A stretch of DNA of 28,750 nt, taken from the NCBI GenBank assembly GCA_014360385.1, contig JACIXO010000001.1:1-28750 (forward strand). Direction: 5' to 3'. The stretch is from Actinomycetota bacterium (GTDB taxonomy: Bacteria > Actinomycetota > Humimicrobiia > Humimicrobiales > Humimicrobiaceae). Positions 611 to 28,750 of this stretch are shown piece by piece. Under the pieces are notes generated by a model that worked only from the letters and a program-made list of their open reading frames with translations, was not told where the DNA came from and searched no databases. Within the stretch, counting starts at the first letter, position 1. Each line of letters opens with the position of its first letter. A program made the translations under genes and the position numbers.

Positions 611-2308
611 CTAGAAAAGTCCCACTACATTTCCATTTTCATCAATATCTACTTTGGTTCCAGCGGGAACTTTGGGAAGCCCGGGCATTGTTCTCATTTC
701 ACCCAAAAGTGGATACAAAAAGCCTGCTCCCACTGAGGCTCTGACATCCCTTATTGGAACTCTAAACCCTCTGGGCCTACCTTTAAGGTTGGGGTCATGA
801 CTCAAAGAAAGATGGGTCTTAGCCATGCAGATTGGAAGCTTATCAAAACCCTGCTTTGTATATAGCTCAATTTTCTGTTCAGCCAGAGGTAGATAATCAA
901 CTCCATCTGCTCCATATATCTTTGTGGCGATAGTCTCTATTTTCTTTTTGATCGGCCACTCTAAGGGATAAAGAAACTTAAATTCACTCGGTTTTTCAGC
1001 AGCCTTTACAACTGCCTCAGCAAGCTCTATTCCACCTTCCCCGCCTTTTTCCCATACCTTGCTAACCACTGCATCTTCAGCACCTGCAGCTATAGCTCTT
1101 TCTTTTATTACCTCAATTTCTTCCTGTGTATCAGCATAGAAATGATTTATAGCAACGACTACAGGAACTCCAAAAAGCTTCATGTTTTCGATCATTTTCT
1201 CTAAGTTTTCACAGCCTTTTCTAACAGCTTCCACATTTGGCTTCTCCATAAGCTCCTTGTCCACAGCCTGTCCAGGAACAAAGTCAAAGCCACCACCATG
1301 CATCTTTAGAGCCCTTACAGTACAGACTATAACTACAGCATTTGGCTTAAGACCACTGTACCTGCATTTTATATTCATAAATTTCTCAGCGCCGCAGTCT
1401 GCACCAAATCCACTCTCAGTAACCACAAAATCTGCTAGCTTTATAGCTATTAAATCTGCAAGAATTGAACTATTTCCATGTGCAATATTAGCAAAAGGAC
1501 CTGCATGAACGAAGCATGCAGTATGTTCTATAGTTTGAAGCAAATTAGGCTTTATGGCATCCTTAAGCAGCACTGTCATAGCGCCTGCGCATTTTAAATC
1601 TTCAGCAGTAACAGGCTTACCACTACGTGTAGACCCTACAACCATTCTACCAAGTCTTTGCCTTAAATCTTTAAGACTAGTAGTGAGAGCAAGGATTGCC
1701 ATGACCTCAGAAGCTACTGTAATATCAAATCCGGTTTCTCTGGGAATTCCATTTTGTGGACCTCCCAGCCCTATAATGATATTTCTCAAAGCTCTATCAC
1801 TTATGTCCACAACTCTATTCAAAGTTATACTAAATGGATCTATGTCAAGTTCATTACCTTTCATAAGATGGGTATCAAGAAAAGCTGCAAGAAGATTATG
1901 AGCAGCACCTACAGCGTGGTTATCACCAGTTAAATGAAGATTAAAATCCTCCATTGGAAGAACCTGTGAATATCCTCCTCCCGCAGCTCCTCCTTTTATC
2001 CCGAATACAGGTCCAAGAGAGGGCTGCCTTATACAGGTGATAGTCTTTTTGCCTATTTTATTGAGGGCCATGCTCAAACCAATAGTGGTAACAGTCTTTC
2101 CCTCCCCAAGAGGTGTGGGAGTAATTGCGGTAACATCGATATATTTTCCGTTGGGTCTATCCTTAAATTTATCAAGAACTTCAAGCTTTACTTTTGCCTT
2201 GTAATTTCCATAAAGTTCTAAGTCTTCCTCATTCAGACCTATGGACTGGGCTATTTCTACAATGTGCTTCATTTTAGCAGCTTGAGCAATTTCAAGGTCG
2301 CTTTTCAC
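611..2308 (-). CDS. fhs: Formate--tetrahydrofolate ligase
   Basis: 565 aa. 'MKSDLEIAQ', '[13 protein letters not shown]', '[19 protein letters not shown]', '[11 protein letters not shown]', 'TMPGLPK' motifs. GTG start with AGGAG SD. Confidence 0.98.
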
Positions 2309-21153: not shown

Positions 21154-23715
21154 TTACTTAATAACAATATTTACAAGCTTATTGGGCACTACTATCTTTT
21201 TTACTATTTCCCTGCTGCCTATAAACTTTCTTACCTTCTCTGAGTTAAGTGCTTCTTTTTCCATTTCTTCAGGAGGCATATCAACAGGAAGGTCTTTTTT
21301 ATCACGAAGTTTTCCGTTTACCTGGAAAATGATAGTCACAAGCTCCTCTTTTGCTACCTCTTCGTCGTACGTGGGCCATGAAACTCTATGAATGCTATCC
21401 TGTTTGCCCATCCTTGACCAGAGCTCTTCAGTAATGAACGGAACAATTGGTGATAACAAAACAAGAAGTTTCTCAGTTGACTCTTTTATTAAAAGAACGT
21501 TTTTCTTATCATCACTTACAGTATCATTATACTTATACATTAGATTTACAAGTTCCATAATCGCACTTATAGCAGTATTAAAGCTAAATCTATCTAAAAC
21601 GTCCTGGGTTACTTTTTTGATGGTCTGGTGAAGTTTTCTATAAAGTTCTTTTTCAAGCTTGCCAAGTTCTCCATTCATAAACTGGTTTTTACAATCCAAA
21701 ACTACACTTGTAGACTTGCATTTTTCTTCAATAGAATTTTTCTGAAGAAATTTAATATTCGCAACCACCAGCCTCCACAGCCTACCAAGAAATCTATAAG
21801 CTCCTTCAACCCCACTATCACTCCAGTCAACTATAGAATCAGCAGGACCTATGAACAGTATATAAAGCCTTAACGTATCTGCTCCATACTTGTTATAAAT
21901 TTGAGAAGGATTCACTATATTCCCCTTAGACTTGGACATTTTCTGCCCACCAAGATTTACTACTCCATGAGGAAAATACTTGATAAACGGCTCCTTAAAA
22001 TTTACAAGCCCCGCATCATACAACACTTTAGTGAAAAATCTGGCATATATAAGGTGCATGGTTGCGTGTTCTATGCCACCAATGTACTGGTCTACTGGCA
22101 TCCAGTAGTCTACTTCAGACCTCTCAAAAGGAGCTTTCTCATAATGAGGGCTACAGTACCTCAAGAAATACCAGGAGGAGCAAACAAATGTATCCATCGT
22201 ATCAGTTTCTCTTTTTGCTTTTTGCCCACACTCAGGACATATAGTATTTACAAACTCCTCGCTATAAGAAAGAGGAGACATACCTGTAGGCCTGAAATCC
22301 ACGTTGTAAGGGAGAAGGACTGGCAAATCTTTTTCTGGCACAGGAACTGTTCCACAGTTATCACAATAAATAATAGGGATAGGTGCTCCCCAGTATCTTT
22401 GTCTGGAAATAAGCCAATCTTTTAGTTTGTAATTTATAGTAAATTTTCCTAAATTATTTTCCTCCAGATAAGAAACTATTTTTTTTCTCCCCTCTACAGA
22501 GTTAATCCCATTAAAAATACCGGAATTTATCATTATCCCTTCATCCACATAAGCCTTTGCAAGTTTTTCATGTTCCTTTCCGTCAGGGGAAATAACCTCT
22601 CTTACAGGAATATTGTATTTTTGAGCAAATTCGAAGTCTCTTTCATCGTGTGCAGGGACAGCCATTATTGCACCTGTCCCATATTCCAGCAAGACATAAT
22701 TTGCAATCCAGACAGGAACCTTTTCACCATTTAATGGATTAATAACGTACCTTCCTGTAAAGCACCCGATCTTTTCTACCTCAGTAGAACTTCTCTCTAT
22801 ATCACTTTGTTTTAGAATTATTTCCTTGACTCTCTCAACTTCTTTGCGATAATCACTATCTTTTACAATTTCGTCTACAAGTGGGTGTTCAGGGGCAATA
22901 ATGAAGAAAGTAACTCCATACAGGGTATCAGGCCTGGTCGTAAAGATAGGAATAACAATATCTTTACTATCATCCAAAAGTCTGAAGTTAACAATGGCTC
23001 CCTCACTTCTCCCTATCCAGTTTCTCTGTATGGTGAGTACTCTTTCAGGCCATCCTCCCTCTAGAAGTTTCATATCATCCAGGAGCCTCTGGGCGTATTC
23101 AGTAATCTTAAAAAACCACTGAGCAAGAACCTTCTTGGTTACCTCACTGTCACAGCGCTCACACCTTCCTGAAATAACCTGCTCATTAGCCAGAACTGTC
23201 TGGCAGGAGTTACACCAGTTAACTTTCGCCCTCTTTTTCTCGGCAAGCCCCATTTTATAAAAAAGCAAGAAAAACCACTGAGTCCATTTATAATAATCCG
23301 GCTCACACGTGATAATCTCATCAGCAAACTCATAGCTCATGCCCATTCTCTTAAGAGCTTTTCGCATCTTATTTATATTTGCCATTGTGCTGTCTTTGGG
23401 ATGAATTCCACTCTTGATAGCCGCATTCTCTGCAGGAAGACCAAAAGCGTCGTAGCCAATTGGATGAAGAACATTATAGCCCTTTCTTGCAAGAACTCTT
23501 GCAACTACATCACCAATAGTGTAATTTCGAGCATGGCCCATGTGAGGCTCACCGGAAGGATATGGAAACATTTCTAAAACATAATATTTGGGCTTACTTC
23601 TGTCAGATTTCAAGGAATATACTCCAGTTTTCTCCCATACCCTGGCCCACTTCTCTTCTATCTCTTTGGCATTGTAGCTTTCATCTGATTGAAACTCTTC
23701 TTTTTTCCTTTCCAT
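21154..23715 (-). CDS. leuS: Leucine--tRNA ligase
   Basis: 'YVLEMFPYPSG.PHMGH' (HIGH), 'TVLANEQV', CP1 editing 'FTTRPDTLYG', 'GTGAIMAVPAHDERD', 'WLISRQRYWG', 'KMSKSKG'. Start is uncertain (ATG 23715 or 23724, or TTG 23778). A 13-bp out-of-frame duplication at 23755-23780 favours a downstream ATG. Confidence 0.97.
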   Translation of the reverse strand: MERKKEEFQSDESYNAKEIEEKWARVWEKTGVYSLKSDRSKPKYYVLEMFPYPSGEPHMGHARNYTIGDVVARVLARKGYNVLHPIGYDAFGLPAENAAIKSGIHPKDSTMANINKMRKALKRMGMSYEFADEIITCEPDYYKWTQWFFLLFYKMGLAEKKRAKVNWCNSCQTVLANEQVISGRCERCDSEVTKKVLAQWFFKITEYAQRLLDDMKLLEGGWPERVLTIQRNWIGRSEGAIVNFRLLDDSKDIVIPIFTTRPDTLYGVTFFIIAPEHPLVDEIVKDSDYRKEVERVKEIILKQSDIERSSTEVEKIGCFTGRYVINPLNGEKVPVWIANYVLLEYGTGAIMAVPAHDERDFEFAQKYNIPVREVISPDGKEHEKLAKAYVDEGIMINSGIFNGINSVEGRKKIVSYLEENNLGKFTINYKLKDWLISRQRYWGAPIPIIYCDNCGTVPVPEKDLPVLLPYNVDFRPTGMSPLSYSEEFVNTICPECGQKAKRETDTMDTFVCSSWYFLRYCSPHYEKAPFERSEVDYWMPVDQYIGGIEHATMHLIYARFFTKVLYDAGLVNFKEPFIKYFPHGVVNLGGQKMSKSKGNIVNPSQIYNKYGADTLRLYILFIGPADSIVDWSDSGVEGAYRFLGRLWRLVVANIKFLQKNSIEEKCKSTSVVLDCKNQFMNGELGKLEKELYRKLHQTIKKVTQDVLDRFSFNTAISAIMELVNLMYKYNDTVSDDKKNVLLIKESTEKLLVLLSPIVPFITEELWSRMGKQDSIHRVSWPTYDEEVAKEELVTIIFQVNGKLRDKKDLPVDMPPEEMEKEALNSEKVRKFIGSREIVKKIVVPNKLVNIVIK

Positions 23716-23754
23716 CCTATCCATTCTCCACCCGTTCCGTTTTCTTTGTCTAAT

Positions 23755-23857
23755 TGAAGTTTCAAACTGAAGTTTCAAACCTTTCCTACTCCCACTCTAT
23801 TACTCTCACTCCTACCCTATTACTCTCAATCTCACTCTATTACTCCCACTCTATTAC
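23755..23857. repeat. 13-bp duplication (tgaagtttcaaac x2) plus about 3.5 copies of a 20-bp unit derived from the rsfS 3' end
   Basis: cccactctattactctcact / cctaccctattactctcaat / ctcactctattactcccact / ctattac. Confidence 0.85.
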
Positions 23858-24184
23858 ATCTGAATCTCTCCAGAGCCTTTCAAGATCGTAATAATCCCTG
23901 TATTCATCAGTAAAGATATGGATCACAAAATCATCGTAATCCAACAAAACCCAGTTCCCTTCACTCTGACCACTAACATTTATAGGAAGTAGATTAGCCT
24001 CCTTCAAATTTTTCCTTATTTCTTCTTCGAGGGTCCTCGTAAGTCGGGTATTTTTTGCGCTCAAAATTATAAAATAATCAGTAATTACCAATCTTTTACC
24101 AACATCCAGAATCTTAATGTAGCTTGCCTTCTTTTTATCAGCAAGCCTGGCAATAAACTTTACTATATCTATAGATTTTTTCAT
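23840..24184 (-). CDS. rsfS: Ribosome silencing factor RsfS (Iojap)
   Basis: 'DKKKA..I.ILDV', 'TDYFII.S', 'WVLLDYDDFVIHIF...YRDYYDLERLW.D'. May start at an in-frame ATA at 24217 (see findings). Confidence 0.94.
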   Translation of the reverse strand: MKKSIDIVKFIARLADKKKASYIKILDVGKRLVITDYFIILSAKNTRLTRTLEEEIRKNLKEANLLPINVSGQSEGNWVLLDYDDFVIHIFTDEYRDYYDLERLWRDSDVIEWE

Positions 24185-24190
24185 ATTCTT

Positions 24191-24210
24191 AAGATTTAGA
24201 TCTAAATCTT
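24191..24210. other. Perfect 20-bp palindrome aagatttagatctaaatctt just upstream of the rsfS ATG
   Basis: The sequence equals its own reverse complement. Confidence 0.8.
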
Positions 24211-24346
24211 TGTTTATTTTCTTGCTCCTCCTTTCTGGTAATAAGTTTATACCTTAATATAATCTATTAACTTAATAATCCAGTAACTTAATAGTCTTCA
24301 TAAAATCTGGAAAATTCTTACAGTGTCTTTATAATTCCCTCTGACC

Positions 24347-26104
24347 TTATTTATTTGTATAGTCTTTTCCAACAATTATACTTATGTCCACATTGTCAGG
24401 GTTTTCTTGCGAACTCTTTACAACTCCAACTCCTAAAAGCTCTTTTATCTGATTAGCAAGCTGGGAAACATTTTCATCCTGAGTAAAAACTATTATCTCT
24501 GTAGTAGTATAATTCCAGTTATCTGCATTTTTTGTTTCCACTACCTTTAAAACCTCTGTATCTTTATTAAAGTGATCTTCAATTATCTTCTGTACTGTTT
24601 TTGCAAGACCGGTAGTTCCTTCACCATTCAAGATATTTATCTTTACAACCTCACTGGCTACTTCTTCCTTCTGTTCCCCCTGCGACTCCAGAGAGGCAAG
24701 CGATGCCTCGTAATTATAATCTTGCCCCAGAATTATAACAATGTCAGCTCCACTTTGGACTTCTCCTGTAGTTATGCTTCCTACCCTCAATATACTTTTC
24801 ACTTGTTCTGCAGCTTTCATCAAGCTACTTTCAGAAGAGCTCACAACAATCTTTGTAGTGGCATAATCAAAGTTATCTGCGTTTCTAACATCCACTATAT
24901 TAAACTTGACGGTCCCATCATCATATTTCAAGCCACTAAAAAGTTCAGAGACTTTCTTGGCTATTCCCTGGACTCCCATCCCATTCAAGATTACAAGATT
25001 TACAGGTTCTACCTTTTCCGCTATTCCCTCCTGAGGAACAGACTCCCCAAAAATTTCAGACACCATTGAAACATCAGGAACATAAAAGAGCTCTCCTTCT
25101 AACTCGACAGGGGTTACACTTAAAACATAAACCTTGCTATTCTCCGGCTTTAGTTCAGCAAAGGTGGAAATTACCTTTGGCAACTCGTCTTCCACTCCAA
25201 GGTTAGTATCAATGTAATCTTTAATAAGCTTAAGGTTGGACGCCAGAACATCCTGATTTTCGCCTGAAATTTTCTTTATCAAGTTCTCAATTACTGTTTT
25301 CTGTTTTTTCATATTTTCTGTAGAAGTCTCGCTTCCAAGATTACCAAAATACTCGAGAATACCACTCGTGGTAATGCCATCTATCGTGTTTTCTCCACTT
25401 CCAAGCTCCAGTTTTGAACCATCTTCTCTTTCTACACTTATTGCCTCATCAATGTACAAATCCAGTCCACCCAGTTTATCCACAGTATTTACTACATCAA
25501 AAAGTAAATAATGGTCTATCTCTATGCCAAGACCATTTTCTAAAGTGAGGCTTAGCAAATCCATTCCCCCATAACTTACAGATTTATCTATGCTCTCAAG
25601 TCCAAATCCAGGAATTTCCATCAATGTCTTTATTGGAACACATAAACATACAAGTTCATCTCTGGTACTGTTGTAACGAGACACCATGATCGAATTTATT
25701 TTAGGCTCCAAAAGATTTCCGCTTGCACCTGCAATAACCACACTTATATCCTGATCCAGCTCCAGAGTCTCAGGTATTTTTATACCCTCTTCTTCCGTGG
25801 TAGCCACTTCTTCGGGAGCTTGTCTATCCTTAAAGTATTTGTTATATACCCACACTCCACCCCATGCAATCGAAGCTAGAATCAGAAGCACAAAAAACGT
25901 GGAAAACACCCTTTTTATTCTTCTTCGCCTTTGTCTTATCCTCCTTGTCCTGTAACCAGAGCCAGAATACCTGCTATCACTGTTGTCCTCGAATTCAAAA
26001 TCTTCATCACTAAAAAAACTACTCTCTTCATCAAAATCCTCTTCCTCTTTCATGTCTTCTTCTTCCACATTTTCATCATCATAATCCTTATTTTTTGGAG
26101 ACAT
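24347..26104 (-). CDS. LytR-CpsA-Psr (LCP) family membrane protein, catalytically degenerate, with two C-terminal LytR_C domains
   Basis: Acidic N-tail, Arg-rich patch, one TM, LCP fold remnants ('IPGFG', 'YGG.DLL..TLENGLGIEIDHY', 'VDKLGG'). Two 'ILNG.G..G.A...NADN..Y.TT.I...DI..I.G.DY' repeats. Confidence 0.85.
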   Translation of the reverse strand: MSPKNKDYDDENVEEEDMKEEEDFDEESSFFSDEDFEFEDNSDSRYSGSGYRTRRIRQRRRRIKRVFSTFFVLLILASIAWGGVWVYNKYFKDRQAPEEVATTEEEGIKIPETLELDQDISVVIAGASGNLLEPKINSIMVSRYNSTRDELVCLCVPIKTLMEIPGFGLESIDKSVSYGGMDLLSLTLENGLGIEIDHYLLFDVVNTVDKLGGLDLYIDEAISVEREDGSKLELGSGENTIDGITTSGILEYFGNLGSETSTENMKKQKTVIENLIKKISGENQDVLASNLKLIKDYIDTNLGVEDELPKVISTFAELKPENSKVYVLSVTPVELEGELFYVPDVSMVSEIFGESVPQEGIAEKVEPVNLVILNGMGVQGIAKKVSELFSGLKYDDGTVKFNIVDVRNADNFDYATTKIVVSSSESSLMKAAEQVKSILRVGSITTGEVQSGADIVIILGQDYNYEASLASLESQGEQKEEVASEVVKINILNGEGTTGLAKTVQKIIEDHFNKDTEVLKVVETKNADNWNYTTTEIIVFTQDENVSQLANQIKELLGVGVVKSSQENPDNVDISIIVGKDYTNK

Positions 26105-26726
26105 TTATAACACCCCCACAAATATTATTCCAAATCTTACTCGTATCGGGATGTAGTAGCTTATTTTCCTTTATAACATAAATTATGGTATTTTTGTAAA
26201 CTTCAGCCAAACAAAGATTTATGTCCTTCAGAGAGAGTTTTCTCAATCTCTCAACCCCCTCATAATCTCTTGTTTCCTCTATTTTATCAGATATAAATAG
26301 AATTTTATCCTCAATACTCATATTGCAATAACCAATGGTATGATACTTAATAGCTTTTAGAATTCTCTTATCCTGTATCCCGAAGTCCCTTGCAACCAGA
26401 AAATCACCAACTAACCCATGAAGAAGAGGAGGTAATTTAAGCTCAAACTCCCTGATTTTTAAATGATTGTTTCTGGCTACTTCTATTAGCTCCTCGTAAC
26501 CAAACATTCTACCATAGTCATGAAGAAGACAGGATACATATAGCCTGTAGTGAGCTTTTTTATTCCTATCATCTATGTATAATAAAGAAAGCTTTTTAGA
26601 ATAATTCAAAGTTCCTATAGTATGGTAATAAAGTTCAGGAGACATCGAAGTCTTAAGTTTCTCAGCAAGAGAAAAAATATAGTTTTTCTGCTCATTACAT
26701 AGATTTAAATCATCTATAAAGTCCAT
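26088..26726 (-). CDS. yqeK: YqeK-like HD-domain symmetrical bis(5'-nucleosyl)-tetraphosphatase (Ap4A hydrolase)
   Basis: 212 aa. 'YYHTIG', 'LLHDYGR', 'LLHG', 'AIKYHTIG', 'FISDKIE..R.Y.G'. Immediately after nadD. Confidence 0.88.
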   Translation of the reverse strand: MDFIDDLNLCNEQKNYIFSLAEKLKTSMSPELYYHTIGTLNYSKKLSLLYIDDRNKKAHYRLYVSCLLHDYGRMFGYEELIEVARNNHLKIREFELKLPPLLHGLVGDFLVARDFGIQDKRILKAIKYHTIGYCNMSIEDKILFISDKIEETRDYEGVERLRKLSLKDINLCLAEVYKNTIIYVIKENKLLHPDTSKIWNNICGGVINVSKK

Positions 26727-27333
26727 TTTTCAAAATAAATTTACAAACACCCTCAGGAAGAAGATAATCTATTGGTCTTTGTTGTTTGATTCTTGCTCTT
26801 ATGTCGGTAGATGAAATAGCAAGTGCAGGAACTTCCATCACGAATATCTTATCTTCTGTATCCAGAATCTTCTTCTTCAAACTTTCCAGTCTGCTTAAAT
26901 CATACCCTGGCCTTGTAGCTGCAATAAACTTACAGAGTGTGAGTATCTCAGCTGTGTCTTTCCAGGTAAGTATCTCCAGTATTGCATCAGCTCCAGTAAT
27001 AAAGTAAAGAGATACGTCCTCGGTATATATTTTCCTGAGTTCCCTAAGAGTGTCTATGGTATAGGATTTTCCTTTTCTGTCTATTTCTATCCTTGATACA
27101 AAAAACTTGCTATTTGAAGCAGTGGCTATAACAGTCATAAGATACCTGTGCTCAGCGCTTGCTATCTCTTCATCTGTTTTATGAGGTGGGTCACCAGTGG
27201 GGATAAATATAACCTTGTCCAGATTGAACTGGCTCAAGGCCTCCTGGGCAGTAACCAGATGGCCGTAATGTATCGGATTAAAAGTCCCTCCCATTATTCC
27301 AATTTTCTGCAGGGATTTTCTGGATTTTTCTAT
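26710..27333 (-). CDS. nadD: Nicotinate-nucleotide adenylyltransferase
   Basis: 'KIGIMGGTFNPIHYGHL', 'PPHK', 'SYTIDTL', 'FITGADA', 'ISSTDIR'. The only canonical start (ATG 27294) cuts the first beta-strand, so the start is placed at an in-frame ATA at 27333. Confidence 0.95.
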   Translation of the reverse strand: MEKSRKSLQKIGIMGGTFNPIHYGHLVTAQEALSQFNLDKVIFIPTGDPPHKTDEEIASAEHRYLMTVIATASNSKFFVSRIEIDRKGKSYTIDTLRELRKIYTEDVSLYFITGADAILEILTWKDTAEILTLCKFIAATRPGYDLSRLESLKKKILDTEDKIFVMEVPALAISSTDIRARIKQQRPIDYLLPEGVCKFILKNGLYR

Positions 27334-27345
27334 TTTGTCTTAAAA

Positions 27346-27351
27346 CCTCCT
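27346..27351 (-). promoter_or_regulatory. Strong Shine-Dalgarno (AGGAGG) for nadD
   Basis: cctcct on the plus strand. An in-frame TAA follows it directly, then an open frame into nadD. Confidence 0.75.
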
Positions 27352-27415
27352 CTTAGGTATGGTGTCGAAGATCTGGCAGTAAGAAAAGCTAAATTGCTTT
27401 ATATTTTTGCATGAG

Positions 27416-28672
27416 TTACTCCCTTATATGACCACTCCCATAAACAATAAACTTATTGGTAGTAAGCTCTCTTAATCCCATTGGCCCTCGCCAGTGTAGT
27501 TTCTGGGTGCTTATTCCTATCTCTGCACCCATACCAAACTCTCCCCCGTCAGTGAATCTTGTAGAAGCATTAACATATACAGTCGATGAATCAATAGCTC
27601 TCGTGAAGAGAATGCAGTTTTCATAGCTAGAAGTAATTATAGCATCAGAATGGTGGGAACCATAATGATTTATATGATTTATAGCCTCTTTTATATCTTT
27701 TACAATCTTTACTGCCATTACCAGATCAAGATACTCCTCATACCAATCCTCCTCACTCGCATCCTCCAGTGAAGGACATATATTTCTAGCCAAAGGACAC
27801 CCCTTTAGTCTTACCCCTTTCCCTTCGAGCTTTTCAAGCACAAAGGGCAGAATTTCTTCTGCTACATCCTGGTGGATAATTAACTTTTCAGCTGCATTAC
27901 ATACGCTGGGTCTCTGGGTTTTGGCATTTACTATTATGTTAGCTATAACTTCTTTATTCATATTTTCAAGGTGGTTATCCACGTATATGTGACAGTTGCC
28001 GATGCCAGTTTCAATTACTGGAACCTTGGAATTTTCAATCACACTGTCTATGAGACTTTTTCCGCCTCGGGGTATCAATACATCTACATATTCCCTAAGT
28101 TGCATAAGCTTTATGGCATCTTCTTTTTCTACAGTAGGAATAATCTGAATTATATCAGGTGGAAAGCCGTTTTTCTCAAGAGCGTCCCTCATTATATCCA
28201 CAAGTTTTTTATTGGTATTTATAGCATGGGAACTGCCTCTTAAAATGACGCAATTCCCTGACTTAAGGCATAAAACCGAAGCATCCACAGTAACATTTGG
28301 TCTTGCTTCATAGATTATACCCACAACCCCAAGCGGAACCCTTACATTAGTAAGAATAAGACCATTCGGGAGATTATAGCCAAAAATAACTTCACCAACC
28401 GGGTCGGTAAATTCTATCACCTGATTTATACTTTGAGCAATTTTCTCTATCCTATTCTCATCCAGACGAAGTCTGTCAAGCAGGCTTTCAGATATACCTT
28501 CCTTCTTTGATTTTATAAGGTCCTTTTTATTCTCCTGTATTATTTGTGCACTTTTAAACACAAGCTCTTCTGAAATACTTTTAAGAACCCTGTTTTTTTC
28601 TGCAGTTTTTGCCTCAGAAATAAAATAAGTACATGCTTTAGCCTTTTTTGCAATATCTAAAACTATATCCAT
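27416..28672 (-). CDS. proA: Gamma-glutamyl phosphate reductase (glutamate-5-semialdehyde dehydrogenase)
   Basis: 418 aa. 'VPLGVVGIIYEARPNVT', 'GNCHIYVD', 'RPSVCNAAE', 'NASTRFTDGGEFG.GAEIGISTQKLH.RGPMGL'. GGAG SD. Confidence 0.98.
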   Translation of the reverse strand: MDIVLDIAKKAKACTYFISEAKTAEKNRVLKSISEELVFKSAQIIQENKKDLIKSKKEGISESLLDRLRLDENRIEKIAQSINQVIEFTDPVGEVIFGYNLPNGLILTNVRVPLGVVGIIYEARPNVTVDASVLCLKSGNCVILRGSSHAINTNKKLVDIMRDALEKNGFPPDIIQIIPTVEKEDAIKLMQLREYVDVLIPRGGKSLIDSVIENSKVPVIETGIGNCHIYVDNHLENMNKEVIANIIVNAKTQRPSVCNAAEKLIIHQDVAEEILPFVLEKLEGKGVRLKGCPLARNICPSLEDASEEDWYEEYLDLVMAVKIVKDIKEAINHINHYGSHHSDAIITSSYENCILFTRAIDSSTVYVNASTRFTDGGEFGMGAEIGISTQKLHWRGPMGLRELTTNKFIVYGSGHIRE

Positions 28673-28718
28673 TTACACTCCATACTCTTATATTTTTTAC
28701 ACCCCATACTCTTATATT
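28672..28718. repeat. 24-bp period duplication of the proA ribosome-binding region
   Basis: tttacactccatactcttatatt / tttacaccccatactcttatatt. The distal copy has GGAG changed to GGGG. Confidence 0.8.
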
Positions 28719-28750
28719 CATGTATTCTGATACATTTCTGGCTTTCATTC

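What the first reader, a model, noticed from the sequence alone, without database searches (positions are those of the whole stretch)
27292..27351. nadD apparently must initiate at a non-canonical codon (ATA, or CTG/ATT)
Seen on the minus strand: AGGAGG TTT TAA GAC AAA ATA GAA AAA TCC AGA AAA TCC CTG CAG AAA ATT GGA ATA ATG GGA GGG ACT TTT. An in-frame TAA directly after the SD leaves no ATG/GTG/TTG before the Met of 'GIMGGTF'. Established: K-I-G-I is beta-strand 1 of the NadD Rossmann fold preceding the GGTF.P.H.GH motif, so starting at that Met would truncate the core of a normally essential enzyme. The ATA at 27333 is 12 nt from the SD, the same spacing as rpsT here. The internal 9-bp KSR/KSL duplication is in-frame, as expected for coding DNA. 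Inference: ATA initiation, which with rsfS hints at lineage-wide use of AUA starts or deliberate down-tuning of NAD synthesis.
Basis: partly seen in the sequence, partly recalled or inferred. Interest (0 to 1): 0.62.

Follow-up and report, generated by a model that had tools for sequence, protein, structure and literature searches.

The report
nadD gene starting at ATA codon
In this uncultured oil-field actinobacterium, the essential NAD-synthesis gene nadD has no normal start codon and is most likely translated from a rare ATA codon behind a strong ribosome-binding site, a known kind of exception that its relatives also use in a few other genes.

Summary
On the minus strand, AGGAGG(T) (27351-27345) is followed by an in-frame TAA (27342-27340). 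No ATG, GTG or TTG occurs before the Met of GIMGGTF (27294). It is not an assembly error: contigs from four public runs (three studies, one a slightly different strain) are identical here.

A model puts beta-strand 1 at residues 9-15, so Met14 lies inside it. The gene body is intact, and nadC and nadE are present, so NadD is probably needed. All 29 relatives examined, and every database homologue checked at DNA level, have a canonical start. This loss is therefore private to this species.

ATA 27333 is the only near-cognate codon within reach of the SD (12 nt, as for rpsT here). It also sits at the family's commonest start position (MEKSSKFYKKIGIM versus I-EKSRKSLQKIGIM).

The "lineage-wide" idea is partly right. 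The family starts rplU at ATT in 23 of 23 genomes, and often starts coaE and ruvB at ATA, ATT or ATC, always behind strong SDs. rsfS here does not need its ATA. I found no evidence for deliberate down-tuning.

Verdict: a probable AUA start, unproven without protein data; a new member of a known kind.

The parts
26710..27333 (-). nadD coding region as proposed: 207 codons from ATA 27333, plus the stop at 26712-26710.
   Evidence: NCBIfam NF000840 gives 289.7 bits against a cut-off of 150, with the profile starting at position 4 on residue 9 of the TAA-to-stop frame. The closest solved structures are mycobacterial NadD (5db4, 4ymi, 4s1o; E about 1e-64), aligned from residue 8. All invariant family residues are present.
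27331..27333 (-). ATA, the proposed start codon.
   Evidence: It is the only near-cognate codon within SD range, 12 nt after AGGAGG. It lies 13 codons before the Met of GIMGGTF, where 53 of 120 homologue clusters and six related genomes start with ATG or GTG.
27345..27351 (-). Shine-Dalgarno sequence AGGAGGT.
   Evidence: It is a 7-nt match to the SD consensus used in this genome. GGAGG-to-start spacing in clear canonical starts runs from 3 to 15 nt; 12 nt accounts for 5 of 72.
27340..27342 (-). In-frame TAA that closes the frame between the SD and the ATA.
27310..27312 (-). CTG, an alternative near-cognate start 33 nt from the SD.
   Evidence: No SD-like sequence lies within 20 nt upstream.
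27301..27303 (-). ATT, an alternative near-cognate start 42 nt from the SD.
   Evidence: No SD lies upstream.
27292..27294 (-). First canonical ATG, which is Met14 and lies inside beta-strand 1. Gene callers use it as the start of a 194-aa product.
   Evidence: The AlphaFold2 model places a strand at residues 9-15. This Met is invariant in 32 aligned homologues as an internal residue. P0002 is the 194-aa call. There is no SD upstream.
27389..27412 (-). Mini-ORF ATG..TAG (MQKYKAI*), 3 nt after the proA stop and behind AGGGAG. It may be a relic of an older nadD start.
   Evidence: Relatives start nadD directly after the proA stop, with N-termini such as MYKSKEE.. or MDKYENS... The relic reading is inference only.
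27416..28672 (-). proA (glutamate-5-semialdehyde dehydrogenase), the upstream gene.
   Evidence: NF001221, 572.9 bits.
26088..26726 (-). yqeK (HD-domain Ap4A hydrolase), which overlaps the 3' end of nadD.
   Evidence: TIGR00488, 109.3 bits.

Best explanation
nadD is a working gene whose canonical start codon has been lost in this species. Ribosomes are recruited by the strong Shine-Dalgarno AGGAGGT (27351-27345). They initiate with fMet-tRNA on the near-cognate AUA at 27333, 12 nt downstream. The product is a 207-residue NadD with a short disordered tail (M-EKSRKSL) in front of beta-strand 1 (QKIGIMG).

Initiation at AUA is expected to be several-fold to about 100-fold weaker than at AUG. The strong SD, which relatives lack at this gene, probably compensates. 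NadD is a low-abundance enzyme, so this level may suffice.

Shown: the sequence is real; no canonical start exists; the SD and its spacing are as described; beta-strand 1 lies upstream of the first ATG; the gene body is intact; relatives have canonical starts; AUH starts occur in other genes of the family.

Inferred: that AUA, rather than CUG or AUU, is the codon used, and how much protein it yields.
For: 1. There is no ATG, GTG or TTG between TAA 27342 and ATG 27294.
2. Four runs from three studies, including a second strain, are identical here.
3. Met14 lies inside predicted strand 9-15, and residues 1-5 are disordered. PDB NadD structures and the NCBIfam profile align from residues 8-9.
4. 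The gene body is intact and keeps every invariant residue. The two strain differences inside nadD (26818, 27133) fall on third codon positions and are synonymous.
5. nadC and nadE are present, there is no NAPRTase hit, and the only other PF01467 hit is a 166-codon open frame on C290 that I did not examine. NadD is therefore probably needed, though a second adenylyltransferase is not formally ruled out.
6. ATA is the only near-cognate codon within SD range. A 12-nt spacing is used by rpsT and by 5 of 72 clear starts.
7. ATA sits at the modal start position of the family: 53 of 120 clusters, with MEKSSKFYKKIGIM against I-EKSRKSLQKIGIM. ATG or GTG is found there in G002, G023, G007, G018, G004 and G020.
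8. The lineage demonstrably tolerates AUH starts behind strong SDs:
   - rplU starts at ATT in 23 of 23 family genomes.
   - coaE has no canonical start before its P-loop in 7 genera, including this one.
   - ruvB has no canonical start in G006, G009 and G015; here and in G013 an ATT or ATA sits behind the SD with a GTG only 15 or 5 codons further on.
   - infC starts at ATT.
9. Natural AUA starts with extended SDs work at about 10-30% of AUG in S. aureus (PMC13009471). AUA gives 1-2% of AUG in E. coli reporters (bioRxiv 10.1101/063800).
10. The protein collection holds a 207-aa product on a 28,750-bp contig (P0001). Either an existing gene call already starts at this ATA, or the row simply echoes my query; I could not tell which.
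Against: - There is no protein or ribosome-profiling evidence. The codon used is inferred from SD geometry.
- A 12-nt spacing is in the long tail for this genome. The family's other AUH starts sit 5-9 nt from GGAGG.
- The ATA is conserved in no relative, so conservation cannot support it.
- In the closest homologues (P0003, P0004, P0040), the equivalent codon is an internal Leu or Ile inside a longer tail. The match to the 'MEKS' start position may therefore be coincidental.
- AGGAGGT alone is a weak predictor: only 62 of 323 sites precede a canonical start.
- The MAG is about 90% complete, so a second NMN/NaMN adenylyltransferase cannot be excluded.
Confidence: 0.68

Rival explanations
1. Full-length-enough NadD is made from another near-cognate codon downstream, CTG 27312 or ATT 27303. 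Either would give a protein starting MQKIGIMGG.. or MGIMGG.., like the shortest natural N-termini.
For: Relatives show that a tail of only 3-4 residues before IGIM is enough: MKIGIM in G013 and LRIGIM in family f3. CUG and AUU are as good as AUA in E. coli reporters (bioRxiv 10.1101/063800). The leader is A-rich and not significantly structured, with z=0.6.
Against: These codons lie 33 and 42 nt from the only SD, and nothing SD-like sits within 20 nt upstream of either. Every AUH start documented in this family sits 5-12 nt behind a strong SD.
Confidence: 0.1
2. Only the internal ATG 27294 is used, or nothing is. The gene then yields a 194-aa protein lacking most of beta-strand 1 and is a recently disabled gene on its way to decay. 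NAD would be supplied in some other way.
For: ATG is by far the strongest start codon in the region, and gene callers pick it (P0002). About 28% of long ORFs here have no SD match of 4 nt or more. The loss is private to one species, and the genome is small and incomplete.
Against: - Met14 is an invariant internal residue inside strand 9-15, so the truncated product should not fold.
- The gene body has no stop or frameshift. It is 78-80% identical to relatives, keeps all invariant residues, and the only strain differences are synonymous.
- nadC and nadE are kept, and no clear substitute adenylyltransferase was found: the one other PF01467 hit is a short, unexamined frame.
- A 7-nt SD placed just before the open frame is unlikely by chance, at about 1e-3.
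- The state is fixed in samples from three studies.
Confidence: 0.12
3. The missing start is a sequencing or assembly error of the MAG, such as a miscalled base or an indel in the A-rich runs.
For: The genome is a fragmented MAG of 465 contigs, and the region is rich in A homopolymers.
Against: Independent assemblies of four runs from three studies match exactly across 27292-27351 with no indel. One is a distinct strain. No single-base indel would bring a canonical start into frame: the other two frames hit stops.
Confidence: 0.02
4. The AUA start is used and has been selected as a regulatory device, attenuating NadD in an IF3- or growth-rate-sensitive way like infC or pcnB.
For: Non-AUG starts can sensitise expression to IF3, ppGpp and nutrient state (PMC5499595). 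S. aureus ccpN AUA responds to medium (PMC13009471). infC here keeps an ATT start, so IF3 discrimination probably operates.
Against: Regulatory non-canonical starts are conserved, as rplU ATT is in 23 of 23 relatives. This one is found in none of 29 relatives or about 118 homologue clusters. The pre-beta1 tail is an indel-prone junction that varies from 12 to 40 residues in the clade, which fits accidental loss followed by compensation.
Confidence: 0.08

Closest known systems
S. aureus natural AUA start codons: citZ (NCTC 8325 lineage only), ccpN and infC (Ribo-RET and reporters, PMC13009471)
   Same: A housekeeping or metabolic gene with AUA in place of AUG, directed by an extended SD. For citZ the change is private to one lineage, as it is for nadD here. 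Expression is reduced but not abolished, at about 10-30% of AUG.
   Different: Those starts are shown experimentally and the SD is close to the codon. Here the start is inferred, the spacing is 12 nt, and the organism is an uncultured actinobacterium.
E. coli infC and pcnB AUU starts (cited in bioRxiv 10.1101/063800 and PMC5499595)
   Same: AUH near-cognate initiation with initiator tRNA. The infC gene of this genome also starts at ATT.
   Different: Those codons are conserved and serve regulation (IF3 autoregulation, limiting PAP I). The nadD ATA is not conserved, and no regulatory role is indicated.
Phage T4 rIIB AUG-to-AUA start mutant (cited in PMC5499595)
   Same: A single change from AUG to AUA leaves a functional but weaker start, reduced by about 85%.
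   Different: That is a laboratory mutant. Here the state is fixed in natural populations and paired with a strong SD. A direct ATG-to-ATA origin is not established.
Family-wide ATT start of rplU and AUH starts of coaE and ruvB in the same actinobacterial family
   Same: The same lineage and the same architecture: a strong GGAGG followed by an AUH codon with no canonical alternative.
   Different: Those starts are shared across genera and sit 5-9 nt from the SD. The nadD ATA is species-private and sits at 12 nt.

Membership tests
NadD, nicotinate-nucleotide adenylyltransferase (NCBIfam NF000840 / TIGR00482, Pfam PF01467) | Profile score above the curated cut-off over the full length. | tested here: met
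   NF000840 scores 289.7 bits against a cut-off of 150, covering profile positions 4-199 of 201. TIGR00482 scores 195.6 against 112.45.
NadD, nicotinate-nucleotide adenylyltransferase (NCBIfam NF000840 / TIGR00482, Pfam PF01467) | The N-terminal GxFxPxHxGH nucleotide-binding motif directly after beta-strand 1, and the C-terminal ISSTxxR motif. | tested here: met
   GGTFNPIHYGH and ISSTDIRARI are both present. They are invariant in the alignment. The model places a strand at residues 9-15 before the motif.
NadD, nicotinate-nucleotide adenylyltransferase (NCBIfam NF000840 / TIGR00482, Pfam PF01467) | Conserved gene neighbourhood proA-nadD-yqeK-(LCP)-rsfS. | tested here: met
   Seen. Homologue contigs carry the same neighbours.
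Bacterial genes with a non-canonical AUH start codon | No in-frame ATG, GTG or TTG between the upstream stop and the conserved N-terminal core of the protein. | tested here: met
Bacterial genes with a non-canonical AUH start codon | A Shine-Dalgarno sequence at a functional distance upstream of the near-cognate codon. | tested here: met
   AGGAGGT lies 12 nt before the ATA. That spacing is within the genome's 3-15 nt range but in its tail: 5 of 72 clear starts, and the same as rpsT.
Bacterial genes with a non-canonical AUH start codon | The sequence is verified independently of a single assembly. | tested here: met
   Four runs from three studies are identical. These are assembler consensus contigs, not raw reads.
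Bacterial genes with a non-canonical AUH start codon | Direct evidence of initiation at that codon, such as an N-terminal peptide, Ribo-RET or a reporter. | not testable with these tools
   The organism is uncultured and no proteomic or ribosome-profiling data are at hand.
Conserved regulatory non-canonical starts (infC/pcnB type) | The non-canonical codon is conserved in orthologues across related genomes. | tested here: not met
   All 29 relatives read have a canonical start, as do the homologue clusters. The 'MGGTF' clusters have GTG or ATG upstream in their DNA.
Pseudogene / decaying gene | Internal stops, frameshifts, loss of catalytic residues, or relaxed selection. | tested here: not met
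   There are no stops or frameshifts and every invariant residue is kept. Both strain differences are synonymous, though n=2 is weak.

The most novel reading that the evidence does not exclude
In this family of uncultured, low-GC subsurface Actinomycetota (Humimicrobiaceae-like), AUH codons behind strong GGAGG sites form a regular part of the start-codon repertoire. About 9-10 genes per genome would use them. These include ribosomal protein L21 (ATT in all 23 genomes read) and, recurrently, coaE and ruvB. Because of this permissiveness, even an essential single-copy gene such as nadD can lose its canonical start and be rescued at once by an AUA plus a strong SD. The nadD locus would then be a snapshot of start-codon turnover in progress.
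Probability: 0.35. Interest if true: 0.6.

Novelty: new member of a known kind. Interest (0 to 1): 0.4.

Why it matters
- Annotation: gene callers give this essential enzyme a 194-aa product that begins inside beta-strand 1. Such a product would probably not fold, and a 207-aa product from ATA is more likely correct. Metabolic reconstructions and protein-family alignments inherit errors of this kind.
- Biology: the locus shows that an essential, single-copy gene can live without ATG, GTG or TTG in a natural population sampled in three independent studies.
- Lineage: together with rplU, coaE and ruvB, it marks this actinobacterial family as a good place to study how strong SDs license AUH initiation and how start codons turn over.
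- Limits: it does not change what is known about initiation mechanisms, and the key step (which codon is used) is still inferred.

Tried and rejected
- Assembly error: rejected by the four independent run assemblies.
- Other lineages with the same problem: the 198-aa 'MGGTF' clusters P0074, P0081 and P0103 looked like candidates, but their DNA has GTG or ATG 13 or more codons upstream. They are gene-caller choices.
- Termination-reinitiation from an upstream ORF ending at TAA 27340: rejected, because that frame has no canonical start back to 27426. The only uORF (MQKYKAI*) ends 55 nt upstream.
- Riboswitch or leader RNA: Rfam gave only a spurious lncRNA hit (E=0.12). The fold z-score is 0.6. 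No promoter-like site was found.
- Genome-wide AUH enrichment: absent with SD matches of 5-6 nt (ATA 7/427 against an overall 1.7%). It appears only with SDs of 7 nt or more (11/51, p=0.01), so AUH use is gene-specific, not pervasive.
- Relaxed IF3: the equivalents of E. coli Y75, R99, D106, R112, R133 and E134 are kept, and R131 is Lys as in Geobacillus. Which residues matter is from my memory, so this check is weak.
- Unusual tRNAs: the initiator tRNA (CAU, three G-C pairs) and tRNA-Ile2 (CAU) look ordinary.
- A single ATG-to-ATA mutation as the origin: not established. The tree places this NadD in a clade with tails of 12-40 residues, and in the nearest homologues the matching codon is an internal Ile or Leu.
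- A duplicated proA 3' end as the source of the SD: the repeat finder gave no support.
- rsfS ATA (24217) as a second case in this window: not needed. The profile starts after ATG 24184, although the SD sits before the ATA.

Full report
**What is there**

Read on the minus strand, the proA stop (TAA 27418-27416) is followed by these features:
- a 7-codon mini-ORF, ATG 27412 to TAG 27389, encoding MQKYKAI*;
- about 40 nt of spacer;
- AGGAGGT at 27351-27345;
- an in-frame TAA at 27342-27340;
- GAC AAA, then ATA at 27333;
- 12 more codons, including CTG 27312 and ATT 27303;
- ATG 27294, the Met of ..KIGIMGGTFNPIHYGH...

No ATG, GTG or TTG lies in frame between the TAA and that Met. The frame before the TAA has none either, back to a TAA at 27426. 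So is the remark that rpsT here has the same 12-nt spacing, with GGAGG 12 nt before ATG 16364.

**Is the sequence real?**

The genome is a MAG of 1.8 Mb in 465 contigs. The stretch is held by public runs from oil-field and oil-facility metagenomes of three studies. Logan contigs of four runs were laid on 23500-28750. All cover 27292-27351 with no substitution and no indel. One of them is a strain with 13 differences in 3.9 kb. The two differences that fall in nadD (26818, 27133) are third-position and synonymous. These are assembler consensus sequences, so rare alleles could be hidden, but a MAG artefact is excluded.

**What the gene is**

The frame is nadD: NF000840 scores 289.7 bits against a cut-off of 150, and TIGR00482 scores 195.6. 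The neighbourhood is proA-nadD-yqeK-LCP-rsfS. The nearest solved structures are mycobacterial NadD (5db4, 4ymi, 4s1o), which also read ..RLGVMGGTFDPIH... Names attached to homologues place the organism among Actinomycetota, close to Candidatus Humimicrobiaceae/Hydromicrobium.

**Why the ATG cannot be the functional start**

- An AlphaFold2 model built with 32 homologues (pLDDT 77.8) has beta-strand 1 at residues 9-15 (QKIGIMG). Residues 1-5 are disordered.
- The first ATG is Met14. It is an invariant internal residue of the family.
- The NCBIfam profile and the PDB alignments begin at residues 8-9.
- From established knowledge of the nucleotidyltransferase Rossmann fold, beta-strand 1 is the central strand that leads into the GxFxPxHxGH loop. 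A protein starting at MGGTF should therefore not fold.

The rest of the gene is intact with all invariant residues. nadC (QRPTase) and nadE (NAD synthase) are present and NAPRTase was not found. The only other PF01467 hit in the 90%-complete genome is a 166-codon open frame on C290, which I did not examine. NadD is therefore probably needed.

**Relatives**

All 29 related genomes read have ATG, GTG or TTG upstream of K[IV]GIMGGTF. G032, an unpublished genome, was among those searched, but no claim here rests on it.

Among 120 homologue clusters, the nearest non-identical one is only 80% identical. All have canonical starts. Five clusters called from 'MGGTF' were checked in DNA for three (four contigs); all have GTG or ATG upstream. 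The loss of a canonical start is therefore private to this species.

**Which codon?**

ATA 27333 is the only near-cognate codon within reach of the only SD. GGAGG-to-start spacing in clear canonical starts of this genome spans 3-15 nt; 12 nt accounts for 5 of 72 cases. CTG and ATT lie 33 and 42 nt from the SD with nothing SD-like before them.

ATA also lies exactly 13 codons before Met14. That is the commonest start position in the family: 53 of 120 clusters, for example MEKSSKFYKKIGIM against I-EKSRKSLQKIGIM. ATG or GTG is found there in G002, G023, G007, G018, G004 and G020.

I do not claim a simple ATG-to-ATA mutation:
- A tree of the protein core places this NadD in a 21-member clade (support 0.91) whose pre-beta1 tails vary from 12 to 40 residues.
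- In the nearest homologues the matching codon is an internal Ile or Leu (..NIEKERRSHQRIGIM..DIEKSRMPVRRIGVM).

The junction is evidently indel-prone. The mini-ORF behind proA may be the relic of an older start, but this is inference. Relatives with an intergenic gap have weak or no SD before nadD. The strong SD here therefore looks compensatory, which is also inference.

**Does the lineage use such starts?**

A survey of the genome gave mixed results. AUH codons showed no excess among leader codons behind weak SDs (ATA 7/427, against 1.7% overall). Behind SDs of 7 nt or more there was an excess: 11 of 51, against 9.8% expected, p=0.01.

Individual cases are convincing:
- infC starts at ATT (profile position 3 at residue 2).
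- rplU reads ATT-TAC-GCT.. (IYAII..GGKQYKVEE) behind AAAGGAGGT. ATT is at that position in all 23 family genomes read, while the sister family has ATG.
- coaE: the TIGR00152 profile begins at an ATA, and the first ATG lies inside the P-loop. G007, G004, G002, G015, G016 and G001 likewise have no canonical start but do have GGAGG plus ATA, ATC or ATT.
- ruvB: G006, G009 and G015 have no canonical start before the conserved LRP motif. Here and in G013 an ATT or ATA sits behind the SD, with a GTG only 15 or 5 codons further on.
- rsfS starts at ATA in sister family f3.

In this window, however, rsfS has ATG 24184, and the profile begins 7 residues after it. Its ATA is therefore optional.

Earlier notes of this scan had already reported the class-wide rplU AUU start, and private ATG-to-ATA changes, in a related genome (e1-929551). 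Another note reported an rsfS AUA start (e1-966158). My tests agree with both.

IF3 keeps the fidelity residues I could check, and the tRNAs are ordinary.

**Comparison with what is known**

- AUA, AUC, AUU and CUG initiate at 1-2% of AUG in E. coli reporters (bioRxiv 10.1101/063800).
- AUA can approach AUG in an optimised initiation region in vitro, and a T4 rIIB AUG-to-AUA mutant keeps about 15% (PMC5499595).
- S. aureus uses AUA naturally for infC, ccpN and citZ (the last only in the NCTC 8325 lineage), at about 10-30% of AUG, always with extended SDs (PMC13009471).

The nadD case is a new member of this known kind. citZ is its closest analogue.

**Verdict**

AUA initiation is the best explanation (about 0.68), but it is unproven without protein data. 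The lineage-wide idea holds for AUH starts in specific genes, not for nadD's ATA itself. Deliberate down-tuning is unsupported. Interest is moderate.

Noticed in passing
G000 contig C54:1973 (minus); loci L109-L132: rplU (ribosomal protein L21) starts at ATT, 5-6 nt behind GGAGG, in this genome and in all 23 family genomes read. The sister family f2 has ATG.
   Followed up: yes
G000 contig C52:434 (minus); loci L047-L065: coaE has no canonical start before its P-loop; the first ATG lies inside GKMASGKS. The TIGR00152 profile begins at an ATA behind AAAGGAG. Six other genera (G007, G004, G002, G015, G016, G001) show the same with ATA, ATC or ATT. The gene is split over contigs C52 and C126, which overlap.
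   Followed up: yes
G000 contig C301:1492 (minus); loci L146-L161: ruvB: the ruvA-side stop TAA is directly followed by ATT CTG behind AAGGAGGT, and the first GTG is 15 codons later. G006, G009 (ATT) and G015 (ATA) have no canonical start at all before the LRP..EFIGQ motif.
   Followed up: partly
window 24184-24232 (minus): rsfS: AGAAAGGAGG lies 9 nt before an in-frame ATA (24217), while ATG 24184 has no SD. The family profile starts 7 residues after the ATG, so either start would work. A minor contig in run X2 lacks one base at 24191, which would put the ATA out of frame. In sister family f3, rsfS has only an ATA start (GGAGG, 5 nt).
   Followed up: partly
G000 contig C112:21558-21563 (plus): infC starts at ATT (or at the ATC one codon earlier) behind GGAGGTGA, the classic IF3 arrangement.
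   Followed up: partly
G000 contigs C152:1328 (minus), C191:1500 (minus), C15:2508 (plus): Three further likely ATT starts behind 8-10-nt SDs: a Phd/YefM-like antitoxin (first canonical codon 48 codons in), a URO-D/MtaA-like methyltransferase, and a membrane protein.
   Followed up: no
G000 contig C84, around 800-830 (plus): prfB carries the usual programmed +1 frameshift site (AGGAG .. CTT TGA). The RF2 profile resumes at position 18 after it.
   Followed up: no
window 27389-27412 (minus); L141, L003, L004: The proA-nadD junction is unstable in this clade. This genome has a 7-codon mini-ORF right after proA. Some relatives carry what looks like a degenerate second copy of the proA 3' end (..GTGCATATAAGAAAATAA) before their nadD ATG.
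   Followed up: partly
window 25609 and 24244-24355: Strain-level structural variants in public runs: a 6-nt insertion (AGGAAT) after 25609 inside the LCP gene in run X6, and a contig in run X2 that skips 110 nt (24244-24355) between LCP and rsfS.
   Followed up: no
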